Made by a program: the position numbers and the translations under genes
The notes under the pieces: generated by a model
Told to the model about the DNA's origin: nothing
Seen by the model: only the letters and a program-made list of their open reading frames with translations
The model's database searches: none
Part shown: positions 3,064 to 21,002 of the stretch, piece after piece
Position numbering within the stretch: position 1 is the stretch's first letter
Layout: the number at the start of each line of letters is the position of its first letter
Assembly (NCBI GenBank): GCA_900128395.1
Contig: LT649323.1
Location: forward strand, 1-37,649
Reading direction: 5' to 3'
Length of the DNA stretch: 37,649 nucleotides
Origin: Stramenopiles sp. TOSAG23-2
Taxonomy: Eukaryota

Positions 3064-3253
3064 CGCGTATATTTGAACTTTTACTTCCAATTCCTAGTTG
3101 TTGTCAAAAAATGTTCCGGTGTACCAAGATCAAATCTTTCCCCTTTCATAACTAATCCCGCGTATATTTGAACTTTTACTTCCAATTCCTAGTTGTTGTC
3201 AAAAAATGTTCCGGTGTACCAAGATCAAATCTTTCCCCTTTCATAACTAATCC
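3064..3253. repeat. Perfect 95-bp tandem duplication covering the stop codon of the kinase fusion gene
   Basis: 3064-3158 equals 3159-3253 (cgcgtatatttgaac...cataactaatcc). Confidence 0.95.
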
Positions 3254-5236
3254 TTTTGCACCAACTTCATTCATTACACTTCGTAAAACATCTGTAAAAC
3301 CAAATTGGCCATTGTTGCCACGTAAATTATTATCATGTTGTTTTTGTAAATGGTCAAAAATAATCGATGGTATTACATAATAACCAAAGACAGTTAAAAA
3401 GGAATTATCATCATATCCAGGTACTTTCAAATGTGCAGTTGCTTCCTCCACTGTAGGCTTTTCTTTTAATGTGCTAATTTTCAATGTTTCATTTCCACCA
3501 GATAGCCATGTACCAGTAGCAGCACCAAAGTGTGAAATCACATCTCCAGGTGATTTCTGTAAACCAATCAATGCACTACCATCGCTACAAATTTCCTTAT
3601 AACATTCTAATATTTGCTGAACGCATGGATGTTTGTTGTCATGTTTGGTTTTATATAAATGATCGCCTAATACTAATAAAAATGTATCTTTCCCAATAGC
3701 ATCTTTTGCACAAAGAACAGCATTGCCAAATCCTTCTTGTTTCAGCTGTACAACAAGTTCGATTTTTTCACCTAAACGCAATATATTTTTTGCCATTAAT
3801 TTTTGTTGCTGGTTTAAACGTGCATAATTTTGTGCAGGTAAAGGTTTTTTGAAAAAACCTTCATATGCAGGCAAATCATTAGGTTGTACGACTATGATGA
3901 CTTTTTCAATACCACCATCAATTAACTCTTGAACCACTATTAAAATTGCTGGTTTAGCAATACCATCTTCATCAACGATTGGAAATAAAGGCGGGCAAAT
4001 CGATTTTGTTGCTGGAAATAAACCAAGTCCAAATCCAGCAGCTGGTATCAATGCTTTTTTAATATTCGATGAGGCTTCAATAACTAATTTCATGACTTCA
4101 ACGGATAAATCTTGTTCTAAAATTTGCTTTACTTCCTCTTGTGCCTCTTCACTTTTACATATAAATTGTGCCGTTCCATCGCCACCAGCACCAACACCTT
4201 TCCCACCATATACTAAATTTTGGATTTTTGGATATTCTAAAATTTTATGCAATACAGGAGCGGTTAATTGTGATGGGCAAACACCTTGTCCAGCACGATC
4301 AAAATGTTCTTGCGCTTCATTCATTAATTTGCCTAGCACCTCCGCGTTGCCCTCGGAAAATGCTTTCGATGCCCTAGAGGTAATATCCAAATTAATTGGA
4401 CCAAGTACATTTTGAACATCTTCTTGTTCTTTTGTTTGTGCTTTTGGATATGCACTTTGTAAATCGCGTAAAATAACAACCGTATCTTTCTTTGCTTTTA
4501 AATCAACAATACAATAATACAATGGTTTTGGTACACGTATTTCCGATACATCAAGAAATTCACCATCATAGATCATTGACACTGGCCTTGAACCAAATGC
4601 ACATGCTTGGTCCATTCGACCACACATAGATGGTGTTAATATTTCACCTTGATATGCATATTCCATCTCGCCACGTGTAGTCATTTTTAAATCATATACA
4701 CGATTGATTGCACGTGCAGTTAAAACACATACAGCAGCAGAACTGGATAACCCTTTTTTTAATGGTAAATCAGTTTTATAATTATTAATCACGATGCCGC
4801 TAATACGATAATCAGTTAATAATTTATATGCAACTCCAGCTGCATAGGACCAAAAATCACCTTTTTGTGCAGCTTCTAATAATTTTTTCTTTTCCATCGG
4901 TATTTCATGTGGTCCATATGTTTTTCCACTCTCATCCGTTGAACGTAAAATTAAACTACTTGGATGTTTCCAACATTCAGCATGTAAGCCTTGATTTGTA
5001 CCAACAACTAATGTACATCCTGGTTGAATTTCATCATTAAATCTACGAAATCCACCAGCCCAGTCGGAATGTTCACCAAAAAGACAAACTCGTCCAGGAA
5101 CAAATAAATAATGTGCTTCCGCATTTTTTGTACTATTATTATTACCACCACTATTACGTCCACCTATTGAAGTTTTTAATGCAACTGTATGTTCTTGCCT
5201 TGGTGATTTTGGTGGAGAAATGGTTAACGATGCCAT
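3176..5236 (-). CDS. GHMP-family sugar kinase (galactokinase/glucuronokinase-like) fused to a C-terminal GalU-like nucleotidyltransferase domain
   Basis: GHMP motifs PGRVCLFGEHSD, LPLKKGLSSSAA, CGRMDQ and GGKGVGAGGDG. The C-terminal domain has KKALIPAAGFG..FPATK, QEGFGNAVL, LVLGD, LKEKP and RFDLGTP. Confidence 0.88.
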   Translation of the reverse strand: MASLTISPPKSPRQEHTVALKTSIGGRNSGGNNNSTKNAEAHYLFVPGRVCLFGEHSDWAGGFRRFNDEIQPGCTLVVGTNQGLHAECWKHPSSLILRSTDESGKTYGPHEIPMEKKKLLEAAQKGDFWSYAAGVAYKLLTDYRISGIVINNYKTDLPLKKGLSSSAAVCVLTARAINRVYDLKMTTRGEMEYAYQGEILTPSMCGRMDQACAFGSRPVSMIYDGEFLDVSEIRVPKPLYYCIVDLKAKKDTVVILRDLQSAYPKAQTKEQEDVQNVLGPINLDITSRASKAFSEGNAEVLGKLMNEAQEHFDRAGQGVCPSQLTAPVLHKILEYPKIQNLVYGGKGVGAGGDGTAQFICKSEEAQEEVKQILEQDLSVEVMKLVIEASSNIKKALIPAAGFGLGLFPATKSICPPLFPIVDEDGIAKPAILIVVQELIDGGIEKVIIVVQPNDLPAYEGFFKKPLPAQNYARLNQQQKLMAKNILRLGEKIELVVQLKQEGFGNAVLCAKDAIGKDTFLLVLGDHLYKTKHDNKHPCVQQILECYKEICSDGSALIGLQKSPGDVISHFGAATGTWLSGGNETLKISTLKEKPTVEEATAHLKVPGYDDNSFLTVFGYYVIPSIIFDHLQKQHDNNLRGNNGQFGFTDVLRSVMNEVGAKGLVMKGERFDLGTPEHFLTTTRNWK

Positions 5237-5420
5237 CTTTCAATTTTTTATATTATTGTTCTTCCGTGTGTGTGTGTATGTATGTATGTATGTATATTGA
5301 AGTTTTTAATGCAACTGTATGTTCTTGCCTTGGTGATTTTGGTGGAGAAATGGTTAACGATGCCATCTTTCAATTTTTTGTATTGTTCTTCCGTGTGTGT
5401 GTGTGTGTATGTATGTATAT
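5165..5420. repeat. ~130-bp tandem duplication covering the start codon of the kinase fusion gene
   Basis: 5165-5294 versus 5295-~5420. The coding 72 nt are identical, while the non-coding GT/GTAT microsatellite part differs. This creates a second ATG at 5366 and a 37-aa uORF (5253-5366, minus strand). Confidence 0.93.
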
Positions 5421-7784: not shown

Positions 7785-8463
7785 TTATTCGAACCAAGGG
7801 AGGAGCAGAGAGTGTATTCACACAATATGTGTGTGTGTGTGTGTACTCATAGATTTTATTCTTTTTTATCATATATAATATAATATGTTTTTATTGCGTG
7901 TATATATATATTGTTATAGATCCGCACTCTTTTTTCATCTTTTATTAAAAAATATGATGCACACATTCTTGACGACACGTGCACACACTATTTTTACATG
8001 AATGTGTACAAGAAACGATCTTATTTACTTTTTAAATAATAAATTTAAACGTACTTGCACTTTCGAGTCATATTACAATTATATATATATGACATACTCG
8101 CTTTTATAACATAATACGATGATGGTTTCTGTTTTCATTTGATCTTTCTACTATTTTGATATTATTCTATATACAACTATTGTGTATAATATATATATAA
8201 AAGTCTCGATATTATTTCATAATATATATATATATATCATGAAAAATATACGTTTAATTAATATTATACATATATCTACATTAGATACATATTCATCAAT
8301 TAATGACAATATATATATATATACGTGTATATATATATATATATAATACATATATTGCAAACAATATTTCTATATAATAATTTCATGTGATATATACATA
8401 ATATATTTCACTATAAATAGTTTATATTCAAAACATCAAAAATTAAAACAACAACAAATGCAT

Positions 8464-10856: not shown

Positions 10857-13583
10857 ATGACAGACACGGCAAAACAAGCACAAAATTCAAAGGCGTCGAC
10901 AAAAAATAAAGGTAATAAACCAAAAAAGTTAAAAGGTGATGACTTAGTAAAAGCTGTACAAAAGCAAATTGAGTTTTATTTGTCAAGAGACAACTTGCAA
11001 AATGATGCATATTTGGTACAACAAATGGATGCATCTTTGTATGTACCAGTGAAAGTACTTGCTAACTTTCCAAAAATTGTATCGTTAACGAAAGAAATGA
11101 ATATCATTTTAAAAGCTATTAAAACCAGTAAAGTAGTTCAGATAAATGGTGACGATACGTTGGTCAAGCCTGATATTACTATGGAACGAAATACTATCAT
11201 TTTACGTGACGTATCTTCCGATGTGAAAAAAGAAGATATCATCGCATTATTCAAAGAGCATAACGCAAAAGCGCTTAATGTACGAAGTGACATCAATGAC
11301 GTTTGGTTTGTACAAATGGAAAGTGAAGATGCTGCTCGTGAGGTATTGTTAAAAATGATGTCCTCCGGTAAAAAGTTAAAAGGTAAACCAATACGTGGTG
11401 GTTTGAAAACGGAAAGTTTATTACGCTCTGTGACACCTAAAGGTGGTGCATCTCCAAAAAATGCGTTGTCAGATGGTAACTCCAACAATCCATCCAACAT
11501 GACTGGGCGCAATCCAGGAACGGGTGGAAGCAATATGTATTCGCAACCACCACCACAAAACATGGGAATGCCACAAATGTACCCACCAATGCAAAATGGT
11601 ATGCCACCAATGTATGGATACATGAATGGAATGCCTCAAATGCCACCAGCACCGTACATGAACAATGGTATGGGGTATCAACCGTACATGAATGCACCTC
11701 ATATGTACAGCCCGCGTTTCATACCAGGCCAAGGTCAAGGGCAGCAATCGAATCAAAAAGGCGGTAAAGGGAATCGTACGGCACGAGGTAACAATAACCA
11801 AAGTGGCTATCAGCAAGGTGGTTATCAACAAGCAAATGGTTATACTCGCAATTCAAATCGCAACAATCAAATGCATGCAGGTGGACGTGGTCCACGTGCG
11901 AACCAACATCGTTACAACAACAATCGCAATAATTATAACAATAATTACCATCAACAAAATAATGCTGTTGCTCATAATATGAATAATGCAAACCATCAAA
12001 ATAACCAACATAATAATAGTAACCATCAATCATCGAACAATAATTCACAACATCATAACAATAAAAATCATAAAGTAGACAACAACAACAACAATAGCAA
12101 AAACAATAAGAATAGCAACAATTCCAATAATGCAAGTGCAGAGGTGAATAATAATAGTAATAACAGCAATAACAACTCTGGTAACAGCAGTGGGAAAAGC
12201 CGCAAAAATAAGAAGAAAGGTTCCAAATCTGATACAAATGCTGATAATAATAACAATAGTGGAAACAATTCAAAATCATCAAAAGATAAAGATCAAAAAA
12301 GTTCGAAAGGTGAAAAATCGAAGAAGAGGCGTAATTCGAAAAATGACAAACAGAAAGATAGCAATGCAAATATTAATGTCAACAGTGCATCTGATTTCCC
12401 ATCACTTGGTGGTTCATCAAAACCAGTCAGCACAAAATGGGGCAAAGGCGATGCGAGTGCCATTAAACGTGCACCAGAGCAAGAAGCCAGCGATGCAAAG
12501 AAAGAAGCATTTGCACGTTTAAAAACCAATGTCAATGAGGGAAATGCAAAAAAAGTAGTAACAAACGTCATTGATAATGCTGTTGCACAATCAAATAATA
12601 AAAAAACAAGTGGAAACAACAACAGCAGTGGCAAAAATAATAAATCTAGCGGTAAAAATAAAGATAACAATAATAGTAACAAGAATCAACAAAGTAATAG
12701 CAGTGCTTCGGCTGCGAATAATGTTGAAAGCAAACAGCCAGTTGGCGATAATAAACAATTTTCATGGGCGGCTACCGTTGCAAAGACAGCGAATGTACCT
12801 GTAAAGCCTGTTGCAAGCAAATCCGCTGGTAAAAATAGTGATGGAGGTGATGGTAAGAAAAAGAAAAAGAATGATAAAAATGGAAGTGGTAAAAAGGGGG
12901 ATAAATCAGGATCCAAATCATTGAATAACAATGCAAAACAAGGAAACGCGTCAAAATCTCCTGGATCCAGTCCAAATCGCAATAATCAAACGGGTAATTC
13001 AGATAACAGCAATAATGGTAATAATAATACAGCACCCAATGATAGTTCAAATAAAGCGACTGCTACGAAAACCAGCGCGCCGGCACCTAGACGTGGATGG
13101 GAGCGCCCAGAATTAACAAAAGAAAGGGAGAAACTTTTAAAAGAAAAAGCCCAACGCGAGTCGGTCGATGTTGCCCAAACAGATGGTCAACAAAAAGACG
13201 GTGGCAAAAAAAGTAAAAAGAAAAGTGGAGACAGTGATAAAGGAAACAATAAAAAATCCAATAATAATAAAAACGAAGATAGTAAAGCTAATACAACATC
13301 ATCAGATAGTAAAGGTTCAAATATGAACACGGGAAATGTAGATGATGATCAAAGAGAACGTAGTAATAGTAACAATGGCAAACCAACGTTTGCTGAAATG
13401 CTTCGTAAAAAGCAACAAGCGCAACAAAATAAAGACAAGGCGAATTCTCCAGGGGAAAGAGGTATAAATCAAAATGTTAAAAATTCGAGAGCGCTTGCAT
13501 TTGCCGATGCAACTGGAGCTCAAAGTAGTTTTAATAATGCTGAAAAGCCAGAAAGAGAATTTGTTAGAAGTGATCTTCAATAA
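10857..13583 (+). CDS. La-related RNA-binding protein, LARP4-like (La motif + RRM + long low-complexity tail)
   Basis: La motif QIEFYLSRDNLQNDAYLVQQMD...VPVKVLANFPKI, followed by an RRM (TIILRDV...VRSDINDVWFV). Short conserved-looking DFPSLG, FSWA and TFAEML motifs sit in an N/K/S-rich tail. Confidence 0.88.
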   Translation: MTDTAKQAQNSKASTKNKGNKPKKLKGDDLVKAVQKQIEFYLSRDNLQNDAYLVQQMDASLYVPVKVLANFPKIVSLTKEMNIILKAIKTSKVVQINGDDTLVKPDITMERNTIILRDVSSDVKKEDIIALFKEHNAKALNVRSDINDVWFVQMESEDAAREVLLKMMSSGKKLKGKPIRGGLKTESLLRSVTPKGGASPKNALSDGNSNNPSNMTGRNPGTGGSNMYSQPPPQNMGMPQMYPPMQNGMPPMYGYMNGMPQMPPAPYMNNGMGYQPYMNAPHMYSPRFIPGQGQGQQSNQKGGKGNRTARGNNNQSGYQQGGYQQANGYTRNSNRNNQMHAGGRGPRANQHRYNNNRNNYNNNYHQQNNAVAHNMNNANHQNNQHNNSNHQSSNNNSQHHNNKNHKVDNNNNNSKNNKNSNNSNNASAEVNNNSNNSNNNSGNSSGKSRKNKKKGSKSDTNADNNNNSGNNSKSSKDKDQKSSKGEKSKKRRNSKNDKQKDSNANINVNSASDFPSLGGSSKPVSTKWGKGDASAIKRAPEQEASDAKKEAFARLKTNVNEGNAKKVVTNVIDNAVAQSNNKKTSGNNNSSGKNNKSSGKNKDNNNSNKNQQSNSSASAANNVESKQPVGDNKQFSWAATVAKTANVPVKPVASKSAGKNSDGGDGKKKKKNDKNGSGKKGDKSGSKSLNNNAKQGNASKSPGSSPNRNNQTGNSDNSNNGNNNTAPNDSSNKATATKTSAPAPRRGWERPELTKEREKLLKEKAQRESVDVAQTDGQQKDGGKKSKKKSGDSDKGNNKKSNNNKNEDSKANTTSSDSKGSNMNTGNVDDDQRERSNSNNGKPTFAEMLRKKQQAQQNKDKANSPGERGINQNVKNSRALAFADATGAQSSFNNAEKPEREFVRSDLQ

Positions 13584-15898: not shown

Positions 15899-16150
15899 TG
15901 TTATTTTTTTATGTTTCTGTTAGAGGGGTTATATGTGTAGATAGATGAATGTGTTTAGATATATTTGCATGTCTTTACATTTATATATTTGAATGATGAA
16001 GACTTGTGTATTATCTATATAGTTTATAGTTGTTTTTAAGTTATAGTTTTTGTTCAACAAAACAACACAGTCGTCTATATTATCGTCTACTTGGTAGTTA
16101 TGTGAAAATTTGCTAGTGTTATACTACCTATCATAATATATAAGTATGAT

Positions 16151-16174
16151 ACAGTGCATCTCACTTTGGAATCA
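16151..16174 (+). repeat. Left terminal inverted repeat
   Basis: ACAGTGCATCTCACTTTGGAATCA; 14 of the first 15 nt match the right TIR. Confidence 0.85.
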
Positions 16175-16346
16175 ATATTTTATTAAGGTAGAAATGGAAC
16201 CATTTGGAACACAGTATTATAATCACAGAATGAAATGGAATCATAAAGTACCTTAAATATTAAAAAAGTAAAAATTTAGACAATTATTTTTTCCTTGGTT
16301 CCTCTTGTTCCAGTTGATTCCGTTTTACTCCAATGCATTCCTGTTT

Positions 16347-18640
16347 CTATGCAAATTCGCCCATTCCTTTGAAAAATGGAACAAAATGCAAATATCCGAC
16401 ATTATTTGAAGGAATTTTTAAAAGTTTCAATCGACGCGATACACAAACATAGTTATTTTCCCATGTTCTAATGAAAATACAAGGGATAATTCCATCAACA
16501 TTTTTCATTCCTGGATTGGGAGGATTTGTTGCTGTTGGCGAATTAATAACTGGAAAATCTGGTCCCAAATTGAAGCTGTATTCTCTATTGTGTATTCTAA
16601 CAGGTACAATTTGCTTGAAACCATCATTGTCAAATTTTGCATAGAACTTCTGCTCTTCACAATGGAAAAATGCGGAAAGAAAACTGTCATCATCATTGTT
16701 TTTACAATATTGTTTACCGCCACCATAATGCAATCGTTTTTGTTTATCTTCTGCACTTTCATCATCAATATCATAGCTACTATCTAGCATATGTAGCGCT
16801 TGCATCATATGAAACTTGTCTGTAACATGCTTTGGCCAATCTTTTGATCCTGTATTGGCAGATTTTGCCCATACTTTTACCCTTCGTATAAAACCCTCAA
16901 AAACACGATCGTTTCCTTCAATGTATCGATAATCAAAAGCAGCTGCTATTAAATTTAACATGTTTGGACGTGCCATGACAAAGAACTTATAAAACTGTTT
17001 CCAACTACCATCTCGTTCCTTTAATAATACTTCAGTAATTTTTTGGCCTCCCCAATATCAAAGTTGTCCTGTCCCATTTTTTTTATTATTTCTTTATATC
17101 GTACAGAGCATATTGTATTACATGGTATTAATTCAGGATTATGCTTAATATTGGCACACCACCCTCTATATTTTGTTGTATTTGAACCCACCCCTGCCAC
17201 CCCAAAAAATTTATAAAAGGCCACACCGTCCATCATGCAAATTACTTCAATTAATTCATCTAAATTTGAAATTTGATGCAAAATATTTTTCAATGCAGAA
17301 TGAAAACCTTCATGATTTCTTGAATATCCTGTAGCTAACGAATAAAATTTTTGGTATGTATGGAATTCATGCATGGACTGTTCATCATCTCTATCAGGAT
17401 AGGGCACCAGGACCATTTGCATAATGCTATTCTTATCTTGCACATTTCCTTTTGCATAATCATCATACCAAAGCATTAAAACGATTTTATTATCCTTAAT
17501 ATCTTGTAATATTTTACATGTTATTTCATTTTCTTGTAGCTCCGTTTTTAAGGATGAACGTAAACGATTCCAAGTTGTCTTTGTTTGATTCCATTCGATT
17601 CTAGATTGTTCAGGCAATTCACTTGGCAATATTTTCCAAATGTCAATATCAATAAACGTTCCATTTGTTCCATTTGCTTCCATATTGGTCTGATGTGATT
17701 CCAAGATGGATTTTAACTTTTCCTCTGTTTCCTTAATCTGATCACGAATTGCTCTTAATGTTTCATTACTGTCAATAGCATTGTTTAAGGAACCGTTTAA
17801 TTCCAAATAATTTTTCATCTTCATCTTTATCTTAATATCACGTTTTGATAAATCCAATAACATTGAGTCTATGTTTAATACAGCTACACCATTCAACATA
17901 TTGCATTCTGGTATACCAATTTCATTTGGCAGTTTCAATACAATGATGCGATATATTTGTTCAGAAGTCAAAATCCCATGATATATATGGGATGTATTCA
18001 CTGTATGTTCTATGAAACTCTTTAATGTACTATGGCTTAGATGCTTTCTAAGAAAGGTAACAAACAAATAATGCAATGATAAAAACAAATCATGTTTGTG
18101 TGTGGCATTATAGTAGATGCTTGTGCCATTGATAGTTTTGGTTACAACATTATTAATTGCCTTATATAAACTTGGGTATATACGATGATACTTGCATTTG
18201 TTGTCATTTGTACATTTCCTGCATGGTGGTAAAGGTGGTGGACCATATATGGTTTGGGATGCAGTTGATATAACTGATGGAACGCCATTTTTATCACTAC
18301 TACTGCAATTATTATTATTATCATTGTTAGTGTTATCATCAAACATATTATCATTGTTAGTGTTATCATCAAACATATTGAAGTCATCATTATCGTTATT
18401 GGCACGGCGACGCTTATTATTTTGTTTTTTGTTTGCTTCATATCGATTGTGCTCACTTAATTTATAAATAGATATTTCATTTTTAAATGTTACTTTCAAT
18501 ATATTCTTGTTGCATTTAATGCATTTAATGAGTATTAGATCTGAATCATCTTGTTGATGTGCTGTATAATAATCATCCATCATTGTCAGATCTACATTAG
18601 GTGCAGACCCATCGTCTTTAAAAGCTTCACTGAGAAGCAT
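16347..18640 (-). pseudogene. Putative DDE transposase (CMC/Transib/RAG1-like) split by a single frameshift
   Basis: ORFs 17021-18640 and 16347-16976 join into ~764 aa if one A is added to the A6 run at 17039-17044 (...EAKK|ITEVLLKERDGSWKQFYKFFV|MARP...). Candidate catalytic residues are in LMLWYDD, CMMDG and ESAEDKQK. Candidate Zn ligands are in GWC and TDKFHMMQALH. The N-terminus has CxxC motifs (CIKC, CRKC...CKYH). Confidence 0.65.
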
Positions 18641-18666
18641 TTCTGTAAGTCGGTAAGTATATATCT

Positions 18667-18778
18667 ATATGGAACTATATATATTGTATATAAATATATG
18701 TGGAATGATGCGGAACAAACAATTATTCATATGGAACTATATATATTGTAATATAAATATATGTGGAATGATGCCGAA
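18667..18778. repeat. ~62-bp tandem duplication just upstream of the transposase start
   Basis: atatggaactatatatattgta(a)tataaatatatgtggaatgatgc(g/c)gaa at 18667 and 18729. Confidence 0.9.
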
Positions 18779-20785
18779 TAAAATATACTATTGTATAATA
18801 AATTCATACAATTTTTGATATAAATTAGGATTATATTCAACTTGACAAAACAATATTGAATGGAGCAGAGCAATGCGGAATCAAATGGCGATATATGGAA
18901 CTGATATATGTATGAATTTAAATTATATTAATTTGAATGTTTGTATATAGAGCTTGCAGAACTACTAAGAATATTATGGAATCGAACGGAACAGGATTGA
19001 AAAAATGTACAGAGTTATAAATCTATATTTTATATTATACAATAATTTTGTATTTATTGCTTCCGTATAATGCTATTTCATTCCATGTTGTTCCATGTTT
19101 AGAATTTTTCTTATCTTGTATGAATCTGTATCTATTTGATTCCATATGGTTCTATTTGTTTCATCGAGAAAATAAAAATTTTCACTAAGTTAAAAAAAAA
19201 AAGGGTCTTTTTATACTTTGTGTTTTTTTTTTTACTTTTAAAATCCATACAAATTACATTAAATAAAGACACTACAAATTATTGTATGGGAAAACTAATT
19301 TTCCCCCTAGATAGATAACAAAAGTTCTCATTGATGTTTTAAATTTCCAGAATGTTGTGCAACACAATAGACAACATCTTTTATCTTTTATACTTCGTAT
19401 ACAAATTAACACTAATAACAATGGGGAATTTAAATTAAATTGATTAAATGCACAATTACTTTTCCACCATCAATATTTTGAGTTTTATATTTTATATAGT
19501 ACTTTATCTCACAGTTAAAGTACAAAAACTCTCCTAAATGTCGATATAGTCATTCACAATGAGGTAATAACATAAGCACAGCATTACTTCCAAAAGACCA
19601 TTTTTTGTGTTCTGAAAAATCACGTTATTTGATTCCATGTGCTTCCAAATTTTTTCTAACCACTCAATGGCAAAATAGCATAGAATTAGCACTAGGTGCA
19701 GTCTGACTGTATCCAAAATCACGTTATTTGATTCCATTTGGTTCTACTTTTCTCCATGTTTTGACACTAACACTACAAACAAAGTACTTAATGACCCCTA
19801 TATTAATAAATTTAAATTTTCACGTTGAAGAAAAATTTTACCAATTTTTTGGAAATACACCCACTAATTACATACTATAAATACATATAAATAAAAAACA
19901 TATATATACATCAAAGATATAAATACACATAACTTTTGATCTAGAGCTCCCTAGAACTTCTAGATGTATAGATAGATTGATACTTACATTAGAAAATATA
20001 TATATATATATATATATAGATAGAATAGATAGATAGAATTAAATAGAAAAAATTAAAATTAAATAGAAAAAAGTAAGTATTCTCATTTTCTAAAATTAAA
20101 AATATTTTTTAAATATATTTTAGTTCCATTTGATTCTAATATGTTCTGTTATAACAATTCCAGATGGTTCCATTTAGTTCTAAAAATATCCAATTAATAT
20201 TTTATAAATTTATTGTTTAAGAATGAAATGGAACCATATAGAACCTTTCAAATAGAATCGACAGGAATCAAATGGAACAACACAAAAAGTTTTTGTTAAA
20301 ATTAAAATGAAAATGTTTTATTTTTTTTTTTATTTTTTTTTTATTTTATTTTTTTTTTTTTGGAATGAAATGGAAGAAAATGGAGACGTACTTTTTTCAA
20401 AAGATGAAAAATTAATAATATTAAGGTAAATTTTGAAACATCAATGTCATAGGTACATGTCGAATATTTAAGTACATCTTTAAAGTATATATCGAAAGAA
20501 GAAGTAAAGTTGTAAAAATTGCTTAAATTTTTCATGGAAAGGAAGTTGATAGGAAATTTTTGGTCGTATTGTTGAAATTATTCCGCGTAGCTTTATTCCT
20601 GTTGGTTCTGTCGGGTTCCATGAGTTGTTTTTAGTTTAAGGCTTGCATGGCAAGGAATACAAGTACTGGGCCTGGAATATATTGCGGTAACTACACAGCA
20701 TTACACAGGGAATATAGTATTTTTGGATTTTAACTAACTAAGAAACTATTCCAGTTGATTCATTGTGGTTCTGTATGATTCCAGA

Positions 20786-20809
20786 TAATTCAAGAGTGAG
20801 ATGTACTGT
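20786..20809 (-). repeat. Right terminal inverted repeat
   Basis: TAATTCAAGAGTGAGATGTACTGT on the + strand. Confidence 0.85.
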
Positions 20810-21002
20810 AGTATGATGGAAATAAAAATTACACGCTACACTCTCTCCTATTTTTTTACGTAGTACGAAGAACTATGTCACATATACTACACGTATATAT
20901 ATATATATATATATTCTTTGTACAAAGTACCATATTTTATCACATTATATATACATTAATTACATGTTCGTCTCTCTCTTCATATGTCTTAAAAATTGTC
21001 TC

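What the first reader, a model, noticed from the sequence alone, without database searches (positions are those of the whole stretch)
16168..20792. GAA/TTC motif arrays in exact 10-bp phase, arranged as inverted pairs across the transposon
Seen: short (G)GAA(T/C) or (A/G)TTC(C) motifs recur every 10 bp with variable spacers. GAA runs: 16197/16207 and 16228/16238; 18959/69/79/89/99; 20221/31/41 and 20255/65/75. TTC runs: 16308/18/(28)/38; ~20124/34/44 and 20158/68/78; ~20596/606/616; 20749/59/69/79/89, the last running into the right TIR. Runs occur as opposite-strand pairs spanning ~145 bp (16197-16341) and ~156 bp (20123-20278). I did not see the pattern in the flanking host DNA. Inference: one site per helical turn suggests a protein polymerising along one face of the DNA (transposase binding sites), or a nucleosome-length positioning or bending signal carried by the element.
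Basis: partly seen in the sequence, partly recalled or inferred. Interest (0 to 1): 0.82.

Follow-up and report, generated by a model that had tools for sequence, protein, structure and literature searches.

The report
Phased binding-site arrays in a transposon
The evenly spaced GGAA motifs are real and mark a 4.7-kb cut-and-paste transposon of a marine protist; related elements carry similar arrays built on a slightly different motif, so they are most likely docking sites for the element's own transposase.

Summary
In the element (window 16151-20809), same-strand GAAY/RTTC pairs lie exactly 10 bp apart 27 times, against 1.0 +/- 1.0 in 300 shuffles. In the flanks there are 2, against 6.1 expected. 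17 of the 19 in-phase runs in the window lie in the element.

The element has 14-bp terminal inverted repeats. Its gene is a deleted copy of a 1087-aa transposase-like ORF that is intact in a metagenome copy at another insertion site.

Two distant relatives (about 40% protein identity) lack GAAY arrays. They carry arrays of a motif one base different: TGGCAT at exactly 11 bp (25 pairs) and TGGCATA at about 12 bp. All three lineages share three features:
- a first site 15 bp from the CAGT tip;
- arrays that read inward at both ends;
- an array just upstream of the ORF.

Best reading: multivalent binding platforms for the element's own transposase, working like En/Spm, Ac/Hermes or IS607 subterminal repeats. 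Binding itself is untested. The nucleosome idea is not supported, because the spans of the inverted pairs are not conserved.

The transposase matches no Pfam or PDB family and only weakly resembles the CACTA/Transib group. The kind of feature is known. The strict phasing, the shift in period and the unclassified family are new details.

The parts
16143..16150 (.). Left copy of the flanking direct repeat AGTATGAT (candidate 8-bp target-site duplication). Alternatively, only the TA at 16150-16151 is duplicated.
   Evidence: Read. The right copy is at 20810-20817. L003 shows no 8-bp repeat but has CA/CA next to its CAGT tips, so the length is unresolved.
16151..16173 (+). Left terminal inverted repeat ACAGTGCATCTCAC plus the first site TGGAAT (16167-16172), 15 bp from the CAGT tip.
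   Evidence: (I15). Copies at other insertion sites begin to match at 16149-16152.
16197..16241 (+). Left subterminal arrays reading inward: GAAY at 16197/16207 and 16228/16238.
16299..16341 (-). Opposed array: RTTC at 16307/16317/(16327 degenerate)/16337. It lies just past the stop codon of the ORF and forms the first inverted pair.
   Evidence: Same layout at the gene-3' end of L003 (8159-8220 against 8310-8431).
16347..18640 (-). Transposase-like gene, defective in this copy. P0001 (539 aa) is 17021-18640; a second frame runs 16347-17057. About 973 bp are missing at 17028/17029 relative to the intact 1087-aa ORF of L001, and the missing part includes the putative catalytic D701/E702.
17588..17611 (-). 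In-phase triple (RTTC at 17588/98/608) inside the coding sequence. It encodes EQSRIEWNQ in a segment that the L002 protein lacks.
18662..18782 (+). Array block directly upstream of the ORF's ATG (18640, minus strand): two 62-63-bp tandem units, each with TATGGAAC and GTGGAATGATGC[G/C]GAAY.
   Evidence: (D13, D16). In L001 this stretch has diverged but keeps GGAA cores 10 bp apart.
18858..19002 (+). GAAY at 18858/78/98 (20-bp steps) and at 18959/69/79/89, plus GAAA at 18999.
19080..19152 (-). RTTC dyads at 19080/90 and 19139/49.
19616..19751 (-). Two copies of a 37-nt repeat, 99 bp apart. Each carries TGATTCCAT[G/T]TG[C/G]TTC (RTTC at 19632 and 19731/41).
   Evidence: (D1).
20123..20278 (.). 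Internal foldback: RTTC at 20123/33/43 and 20157/67/77 facing GAAY at 20221/31/41 and 20255/65/75. The right arm resembles the left subterminal region (16183-16210, 82%).
   Evidence: (I1, D17).
20363..20386 (+). Degenerate in-phase triple GGAATGAAATGGAAGAAAATGGAG.
   Evidence: D5.
20595..20618 (-). RTTC at 20595/605/615.
20748..20791 (-). Right subterminal array of five units (20748/58/68/78/88) reading inward from the right tip. The outermost unit (TTGAAT on the minus strand) is 15 bp from the tip.
20796..20809 (-). Right terminal inverted repeat ACAGTACATCTCAC.
   Evidence: A metagenome contig stops matching at 20808 (record 24).
20810..20817 (.). Right copy of the flanking direct repeat AGTATGAT.

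Best explanation
The motifs are arrays of short recognition sites (core TGGAAY, one per 10 bp) belonging to a 4.66-kb TIR 'cut-and-paste' DNA transposon of an AT-rich marine unicellular eukaryote.

Inferred mechanism: the N-terminal, zinc-finger-like DNA-binding part of the element's own multimeric transposase docks on these sites side by side, several protomers per array.
- The arrays next to the two tips read inward, with a first site at a fixed 15 bp from the tip. They mark the ends and help pair them for cleavage, as subterminal repeats do in En/Spm, Ac, Hermes and IS607-family elements.
- The arrays directly upstream of the transposase ORF, and the internal foldback, probably act as an operator or enhancer-like platform for autoregulation or synapsis.

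The copy in the window has lost about 973 bp of the gene. It is therefore a non-autonomous derivative that keeps all its cis sites.

Shown: the periodicity, its confinement to the element, the inward orientation, mobility, and the co-variation of motif and period among relatives.

Inferred: who binds, and what binding does.
For: 1. Periodicity far beyond chance and confined to the element.

2. A real mobile element.
- It has 14-bp TIRs: 2 exact matches in the window, against 0.35 expected for matches with up to 2 mismatches.
- It has a flanking direct repeat.
- A copy with 99.9% and 94% nucleotide identity over its two aligned blocks (93% protein identity) sits at another insertion site beside an eIF4A-like gene.
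- Contigs from other cells and from marine metagenomes break off at the same tips.

3. Symmetry. GAAY reads inward from both tips, and the first site is 15 bp from the CAGT tip at both ends.

4. Comparative evidence.
- L002 (protein 41% identical over the core) has 47 TGCCA/TGGCA motifs in 5816 bp of element and 0 in 779 bp of flank. It has 25 pairs at d=11, 18 at d=22 and 11 at d=33.
- L003 has 36 motifs in the 4161-bp element (8.65 per kb) against 1.9-2.0 per kb in its flanks, with 7 pairs at d=12.
- Neither relative has GAAY arrays: only 1 and 3 dyads, and no run of 3.
- The first site is also at offset 15: TGGCAT in L002, TGGCAG at both L003 ends.
- An array lies just upstream of the ORF in all three lineages: window 18662-18782, L002 3991-4207, L003 5792-5944.

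5. Information content. It is high in the core and at the two positions beside it (T 28 of 43, G 25 of 43; C 21 of 43, A 32 of 43). It is 0.1-0.5 bit in the spacers (L002 and L003).

6. Protein divergence. The N-terminal 147 residues, with CxxC...H, do not align between the two lineages by BLASTP. The core is 41% identical. This fits a changed DNA specificity.

7. Precedents.
- Hermes BED domains bind AAG(T/C) subterminal repeats whose phasing matters (PMC10368747, passages).
- IS1535 TnpA forms a filament on four helically phased 9-bp motifs (PMC6188088, passages).
- CACTA subterminal repeats differ between elements while the tips stay the same (PMC2613891, passages).
Against: - No binding or transposition data exist.
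- The DNA-binding domain is only guessed. The AlphaFold model failed (mean pLDDT 38), and no Pfam or PDB family matches.
- Many arrays lie far from the ends, up to about 2 kb inside. Classical subterminal repeats do not.
- Some in-phase runs lie inside the coding sequence.
- Between the window and L001, core positions are not significantly better conserved than the rest: 4 of 25 changed against 45 of 131 in the diverged stretch, Fisher p = 0.10; over the whole 5' region p = 0.39.
- The period differs among lineages (10, 11, 12 bp) and is irregular in L003, so strict same-face binding cannot be general.
- Only three lineages were found. L002 is cut by its contig end, and L003 has a truncated ORF.
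Confidence: 0.65

Rival explanations
1. Only the arrays next to the tips are functional sites. The internal arrays (18662-19744, 20123-20386) are relics: internal duplications or rearranged 'pseudo-ends' of the same element, such as a right-end/left-end junction without TIRs at 20123-20278. They are carried along without a role of their own.
For: - The right arm of the foldback resembles the left subterminal region (16183-16210 against 20217-20244, 82%, D17).
- The 5' region holds tandem duplications of array-bearing units (62-63 bp at 18662-18782; 99 bp at 19616-19751).
- Copies differ by large indels in this region.
Against: - No internal TIR copy exists: only the two tips match with up to 2 mismatches, plus one match outside the element at 12382.
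- An array directly upstream of the ORF recurs in three lineages with different motifs. That argues for a maintained position.
Confidence: 0.2
2. The arrays are neutral products of replication slippage: short decayed 10-mer minisatellites inside a transposon, with no protein partner.
For: - The unit has a weak consensus beyond the core, A-A-A-T-G-G-A-A-Y-C.
- AT-rich genomes are rich in tandem repeats.
- Conservation of cores against spacers between two copies is not significant.
Against: - There are 17 separate short runs of 2-5 units in both orientations, not one block.
- The placement is symmetrical at both tips.
- Relatives have the same architecture with another core and another period.
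- The flanks have none.
Confidence: 0.08
3. The arrays are a signal read by the host: a nucleosome-positioning or intrinsic-bending element, or sites for a host GGAA-binding factor that the element exploits for chromatin state or expression.
For: - The 10-bp phase with an A-rich spacer (AAAT each turn) could bend DNA.
- The pairs span 145 and 156 bp in this copy.
Against: - Arrays are only 20-50 bp long.
- Pair spans are not conserved in relatives: about 115, 615 and 270 bp.
- The core changes to TGGCAT and the period to 11-12 bp in relatives living in similar marine samples. That is hard to reconcile with a single host factor or with a structural signal tied to 10.5 bp.
- No such arrays occur in 33 kb of flanking host DNA.
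Confidence: 0.07

Closest known systems
Subterminal repetitive regions of CACTA (En/Spm, Tam1, Tgm) transposons, bound by TNPA-type proteins
   Same: A short motif is reiterated in direct and inverted orientation inside both ends. The motif differs between related elements while the tips stay conserved. The 5' block overlaps the promoter region, which allows autoregulation (PMC2613891, passages read). The tips begin CA and end TG.
   Different: - The cores are shorter: 5-6 bp here, against 12 bp in En-1.
- Here they are set head to tail at an exact 10 bp (11 bp in L002).
- They extend over the whole 2.2-kb 5' non-coding part.
- No separate TNPA-like ORF was seen in the window element.
- The transposase does not match Transposase_21.
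- The TSD is 8 or 2 bp, not 3.
Subterminal repeats of hAT elements (Hermes AAG[T/C] sites bound by BED domains; Ac AAACGG hexamers, the latter recalled)
   Same: There are many copies of a 4-6-bp core within the ends. A zinc-finger N-terminal domain of a multimeric transposase reads them. The ends are asymmetric, and phasing matters for activity (PMC10368747, passages read).
   Different: - hAT repeats lie at variable spacings and orientations (PMC6188088 discussion, passage read). Here they form regular tandem arrays.
- No hAT dimerisation domain was found.
IS607-family ends (IS1535), bound by a TnpA serine transposase
   Same: Directly repeated motifs are helically phased near the end. They nucleate a cooperative protein filament that captures the second end (PMC6188088, passages read). 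This is the clearest precedent for 'one site per turn'.
   Different: That system is prokaryotic, uses a serine recombinase, and has no TIRs and no TSD. It has four 9-bp motifs on one end only. Here the element is eukaryotic with a DDE-like protein, and arrays sit at both ends and internally.
Foldback-type elements and Galileo (tandem repeats with extra THAP-binding sites inside long TIRs)
   Same: Tandemly repeated binding sites occur inside the ends, with internal foldback structure (PMC4079207, passage read).
   Different: The TIRs here are only 14-23 bp. The arrays are not part of long, perfect inverted termini.

Membership tests
Subterminal binding-site repeats of TIR DNA transposons (kind of feature) | A short motif reiterated in both orientations within a few hundred bp of both termini of an element with TIRs, and absent from the flanks | tested here: met
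Subterminal binding-site repeats of TIR DNA transposons (kind of feature) | The motif is lineage-specific while the terminal nucleotides are conserved among related elements | tested here: met
   The tips are (A)CAGTR in the window, L001, L002 and L003. The cores are TGGAAY, TGGCAT and TGGCATA.
Subterminal binding-site repeats of TIR DNA transposons (kind of feature) | Bound by an element-encoded protein and required in cis for transposition | not testable with these tools
   No DNA-protein tool was available. The structure model was too poor to use.
[quoted passage not shown] | 5'-CA..TG-3' termini | tested here: met
   CAGT...ACTG in the window and L003; CAGT in L001 and L002.
[quoted passage not shown] | 2-5-bp target-site duplication | tested here: inconclusive
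   The window fits either an 8-bp AGTATGAT (tips ACAGT) or a 2-bp TA (tips CAGT). L003 has CA/CA and no 8-bp repeat. No empty site was seen.
[quoted passage not shown] | [quoted passage not shown] | tested here: not met
   Between the candidate D470 and D701/E702 the family has CxCxC (CxC in L003 and P0003). It has H(5)H in 2 of 3 lineages, and L002 lacks the second H. The place and the type of residues are similar, but the spacing is not.
[quoted passage not shown] | Sequence match to Transposase_21, Plavaka or RAG1 models | tested here: not met
   No such Pfam hit at E up to 1-10 for 5 family members. There is only language-model likeness: Plavaka 0.94, Transposase_21 0.92, RAG1 0.92, with 139-165 shared features, below the 170 typical of true members.
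hAT superfamily | 8-bp TSD and a C-terminal hAT dimerisation domain | tested here: not met
   The TSD is ambiguous (see above). No Dimer_Tnp_hAT hit and no other hAT model hit.
KDZ (Kyakuja-Dileera-Zisupton) | 7-8-bp TSD (PMC12730594) and a KDZ transposase domain | tested here: not met
   No Pfam KDZ hit. The TSD is ambiguous.
Nucleosome-positioning or bending element | 10-bp periodic signal sustained over about 147 bp, with the span conserved among relatives | tested here: not met
   Arrays are 20-50 bp long. Pair spans are 145 and 156 bp here, and about 115, 615 and 270 bp in relatives. The period is 11-12 bp in relatives.

The most novel reading that the evidence does not exclude
These elements form a so far undescribed, superfamily-level lineage of eukaryotic DDE transposons in marine protists, distantly CACTA/Transib-like. 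They were seen in only 5 representatives among 1.84 billion proteins and in 3 metagenome loci.

In this reading the transposase assembles as a head-to-tail filament on tandem 10-12-bp units. The recognition core (TGGAAY to TGGCAT) and the repeat period (10, 11, 12 bp) have co-evolved with the N-terminal domain.

That would give a natural series for studying how a transposase changes both its DNA word and its polymer pitch. The promoter-proximal and internal arrays would act as operator or enhancer for synapsis.
Probability: 0.3. Interest if true: 0.65.

Novelty: new variant of a known kind. Interest (0 to 1): 0.45.

Why it matters
Reiterated subterminal sites are a textbook feature of several transposon superfamilies, so the principle is not new.

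Three things are useful here.

1. Three related lineages keep the same layout but differ by one base in the core and by 1-2 bp in the period. The shared layout is a tip, 15 bp, a first site, inward-reading tandem arrays, and an array in front of the gene. This is a compact natural experiment on the co-evolution of a transposase with its sites, and on whether strict helical phasing is needed.

2. The transposase has no Pfam or PDB relative and is nearly absent from protein databases. The family therefore adds to the sparse catalogue of mobile elements in uncultured marine protists.

3. A defective copy with a full set of sites, together with an intact ORF from a metagenome, gives the donor and helper pair needed for a transposition assay.

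Tried and rejected
- Whole genome: none is held for this window, so copy number, empty sites and genome-wide periodicity could not be computed.
- Protein searches:
  - The search for homologous proteins with P0001 (residues 120-539) and with alignment A4 gave no hit.
  - A viral-contig scan gave no relative.
  - Pfam gave no credible hit for 5 family members.
  - PDB searches by sequence and by profile gave nothing relevant.
- Structure: the AlphaFold2 model of the 1087-aa protein, built on a 5-row alignment, had mean pLDDT 38. No fold search was run on it. Its secondary-structure order around D392/D470/E702 looks RNase-H-like, but that is weak.
- Nested copies: a search for nested MITE copies as the source of the internal arrays found no internal TIR.
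- Hairpin reading of the inverted pairs: it holds for 20115-20285 (z = -7.3) but not for 16190-16345 (z = 0.05), so it is not general.
- Core against spacer conservation between the window and L001: the trend is not significant.
- Joints 16420>20102 and 16710>20407 in read laying might be MITE-like deletion derivatives. They rest on only 21-22 letters on one side and were not used.
- RNA runs listed hold 0.07-0.12 of the sampled words.
- L001 1-776 does not match the window's 19463-20809 and holds no arrays. It is probably another insertion or a rearrangement, and it was left unexplained.
- Extra ORFs of L002 (308 aa and 158 aa) gave no Pfam family.


Full report
**1. The observation**

The window is AT-rich (about 25-40% GC) and carries densely packed, mostly intron-free eukaryotic genes. 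These include a peptidase M49, a GHMP-kinase/nucleotidyl-transferase fusion, and La, ferredoxin, sulfotransferase and C2/PH proteins.

Between 16151 and 20809 lies an insertion. It is bounded by the inverted repeat ACAGT[G/A]CATCTCAC and flanked by the direct repeat AGTATGAT (16143-16150 and 20810-20817).

Six more were found.

The spacing statistics are as follows.
- Same-strand GAAY/RTTC pairs at exactly 10 bp: 27, against 1.0 +/- 1.0 in 300 dinucleotide shuffles (z = 26). At 20 bp: 16.
- With the motif number held and positions random: mean 1.46, maximum 7 of 5000.
- In the non-coding 2.4 kb of the element, the counts at d = 7 to 13 are 0, 0, 1, 25, 0, 0, 1. This controls for local motif density.
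- In the 33 kb of flanks there are 2 pairs at d=10, against 6.1 expected.
- 17 of the 19 in-phase runs in the window lie in the element.
- A block periodogram peaks at 10-10.5 bp, above all 17 outside windows.

**2. What the unit is**

I aligned the 43 units that belong to runs. This gives A-A-A-T-[G/A]-G-A-A-[C/T]-[C/A]-A. GAAY is fixed by the selection itself. The unselected neighbours are biased: T in 28 of 43, G in 25 of 43, C in 21 of 43 and A in 32 of 43. The remaining spacer positions carry only 0.1-0.3 bit.

The runs are short (2-5 units), lie on both strands and occupy many places. That is not the picture of one decayed satellite block.

**3. The element**

The minus strand carries an ORF of 539 aa (17021-18640, P0001). 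It is followed, after a frame break, by a second frame (16347-17057).

A metagenome contig, L001, holds a nearly identical copy. It is 99.9% identical over 879 bp and 94% over 2446 bp, and it carries an uninterrupted 1087-aa ORF (P0007). The window copy lacks about 973 bp at 17028/17029. The window copy is therefore a defective deletion derivative.

In L001 the left tip abuts quite different DNA, next to an eIF4A-like gene. Contigs of another cell of the same coded organism, of a second coded organism, and of marine metagenomes match the element and break off at 16149-16152 and at 20808. One shows another internal deletion, 16749>17123.

The element is thus mobile, multi-copy and prone to internal deletions, like Ac/Ds.

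**4. The protein**

The searches gave little.
- No Pfam family matched.
- No PDB relative was found by sequence or by profile.
- The 5.8-billion word-indexed collection gave no hit.
- An exhaustive HMMER search of 1.84 billion representatives gave only 5 hits: one 677-aa protein at 41% identity and four fragments. All come from marine metagenome sources.

The alignment of three lineages shows these conserved blocks:
- WYDDYA
- MMDG[IV]AFYKFFG
- CxCxCxD[FW]
- GxMHxxLxGxGKxGIL
- AIFQxDE
- FDHGxK

I read this as a D (392/393) - D (470) - E (702) triad with a 230-aa insertion that holds Cys/His motifs. This is an inference.

The AlphaFold model was too poor to test it (mean pLDDT 38). Its strand-strand-strand-helix-strand order around the two Asp residues is RNase-H-like, but this is low confidence.

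The language-model atlas puts the core nearest to Plavaka (0.94), Transposase_21 (0.92) and RAG1 (0.92). The shared-feature counts are below those typical of true members, so this is a lead only.

PMC12730594 (passages read) defines the CMCT clade by three features. Here they fare as follows.
- CA..TG tips: present here.
- 2-5-bp TSDs: ambiguous here.

I therefore do not file the family under any superfamily.

The TSD remains open. The window fits an 8-bp duplication with ACAGT tips. It equally fits a TA duplication with CAGT tips. L003 has CA on both sides of its CAGT tips and no 8-bp repeat. Five of six ends have A, and five of six have T before that, next to CAGT.

**5. The decisive comparison**

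Two distant relatives were fetched.
- L002: ORF 41% identical over the core; its 3' part is cut by the contig end.
- L003: a complete 4160-bp element with a 21-bp TIR matching at 20 of 21 positions. Its ORF is truncated.

Neither has GAAY arrays: 1 and 3 dyads, and no triple.

An unbiased k-mer scan showed that each has its own phased word.

In L002, [A]TGCCA/TGGCA[T] recurs at exactly 11 bp. There are 25 pairs at d=11, 18 at d=22 and 11 at d=33. The element part holds 47 motifs and the 779-bp flank holds none. Shuffles give 0.02 per distance. Runs have up to 6 units, lie in both orientations, and include a convergent pair at 3991-4106.

In L003, TGGCATA recurs at 12 bp (7 pairs), with further steps of 10, 11 and 18-23 bp. 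Its density is 8.65 per kb in the element against 1.9-2.0 per kb in both flanks.

The layout is shared.
- The first site starts 15 bp from the tip C in every end that can be read: TGGAAT and TTGAAT in the window, TGGCAT in L002, and TGGCAG at both ends of L003.
- The arrays read inward from both tips.
- At the gene-3' end an inward array is followed by an opposed one (window 16197-16337; L003 8431-8159).
- An array block lies directly upstream of the ORF (window 18662-18782; L002 3991-4207; L003 5792-5944).

The cores differ by one base (TGG-A-AY against TGG-C-AT).

The N-terminal 147 residues of the two full proteins no longer align, while the core is 41% identical.

Within the window lineage, the only diverged stretch between the two copies (18655-18810) keeps GGAA cores 10 bp apart in both. 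L001 has a triple where the window has a dyad. The statistical contrast of core against spacer is not significant (p = 0.10).

**6. Interpretation**

These features fit arrays of binding sites for an element-encoded protein. They parallel:
- En/Spm subterminal repeats with TNPA (PMC2613891);
- Hermes and Ac subterminal repeats with BED domains (PMC10368747);
- for the phasing, the IS1535 end, where four helically phased motifs nucleate a transposase filament (PMC6188088).

The only substantial ORF in the window element is the transposase. No other ORF of 70 aa or more lies in the 2.2-kb 5' region. Its N-terminus has a CxxC...H beta-beta-alpha-like segment. I therefore propose the transposase itself as the binder. 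This step is inferred.

The promoter-proximal block and the internal foldback may serve autoregulation or synapsis. Alternatively they may be duplicated pseudo-ends (rival 1).

The period of 10, 11 or 12 bp says that rough, not exact, helical register is what is kept.

The nucleosome reading fails on array length and on the non-conserved pair spans.

**7. Novelty**

The kind of feature is known. Earlier notes of this scan describe similar phased end arrays in rotifer CACTA-like and Mutator-like elements (unchecked by me).

What I did not find described is the following:
- the strict tandem phasing;
- the one-base core switch with a change of period;
- the fixed 15-bp offset of the first site;
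- the spread of arrays across the whole non-coding part;
- a transposase family without database relatives.

They were not aimed at this family by name, since it has none.

**8. Limits**

- There is one window copy and one near-identical copy.
- Only three lineages were found, two of them incomplete.
- No genome was available for genome-wide controls.
- No fold, no binding data and no expression data were obtained.
- Paper supplements were closed.

Noticed in passing
window 17028-17029 (L001 3206-4178): The window copy of the transposase gene lacks about 973 bp that are present in the intact 1087-aa ORF of L001. The loss shifts the frame and removes the putative catalytic D701/E702 region. A contig of another coded organism shows a different internal deletion (16749>17123).
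   Followed up: yes
window 18316-18375: A perfect 30-bp tandem duplication inside the ORF encodes NMFDDNTNND twice. It is also present in L001's protein, and it attracts very high contig depth in metagenomes because it is low-complexity.
   Followed up: partly
window 17588-17611 and 17658-17683; L001 4082-4105: In-phase GGAAY runs lie inside the coding sequence, encoding EQSRIEWNQ, MEANGTNGT and RGIDWNHEEQ. They fall in segments that the L002 and L003 proteins lack. Either array DNA was recruited into lineage-specific protein insertions, or binding sites are embedded in the gene.
   Followed up: partly
window 19186-19206; L002 2838-2860, 3050-3070, 3152-3172; L003 about 5316-5330: A short block, ACTAAGTTAAAAAAAA (AGCAAGTTAAAAAA in L003), recurs in the 5' non-coding region of all three lineages. 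In L002 it heads three roughly 110-bp tandem repeats. It may be a conserved cis element (promoter or terminator).
   Followed up: no
L002 1575-2501 (-) and 3394-3870 (+): The L002 element carries two further ORFs (308 aa, Cys-rich C-terminus; 158 aa) between its array blocks. Neither matches a Pfam family, and the window element has no counterpart.
   Followed up: partly
window 19449-19551; L001 1-776: Copies diverge abruptly here. One contig has 578 other letters between 19449 and 19551, and L001 continues with unrelated DNA that holds no arrays. This is a hotspot of rearrangement or nested insertion in the 5' region.
   Followed up: partly
window 3176-5239 (-): The host gene fuses a GHMP-kinase N-terminal domain with a nucleotidyl-transferase domain (a sugar-1-kinase/pyrophosphorylase type fusion). 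It is unrelated to the finding.
   Followed up: no
window 19944-19966: A near-palindrome, CTAGAGCTCCCTAGAACTTCTAGATG, contains GAAC/TTC in inverted orientation with a 1-nt gap. It stands apart from the phased arrays.
   Followed up: no
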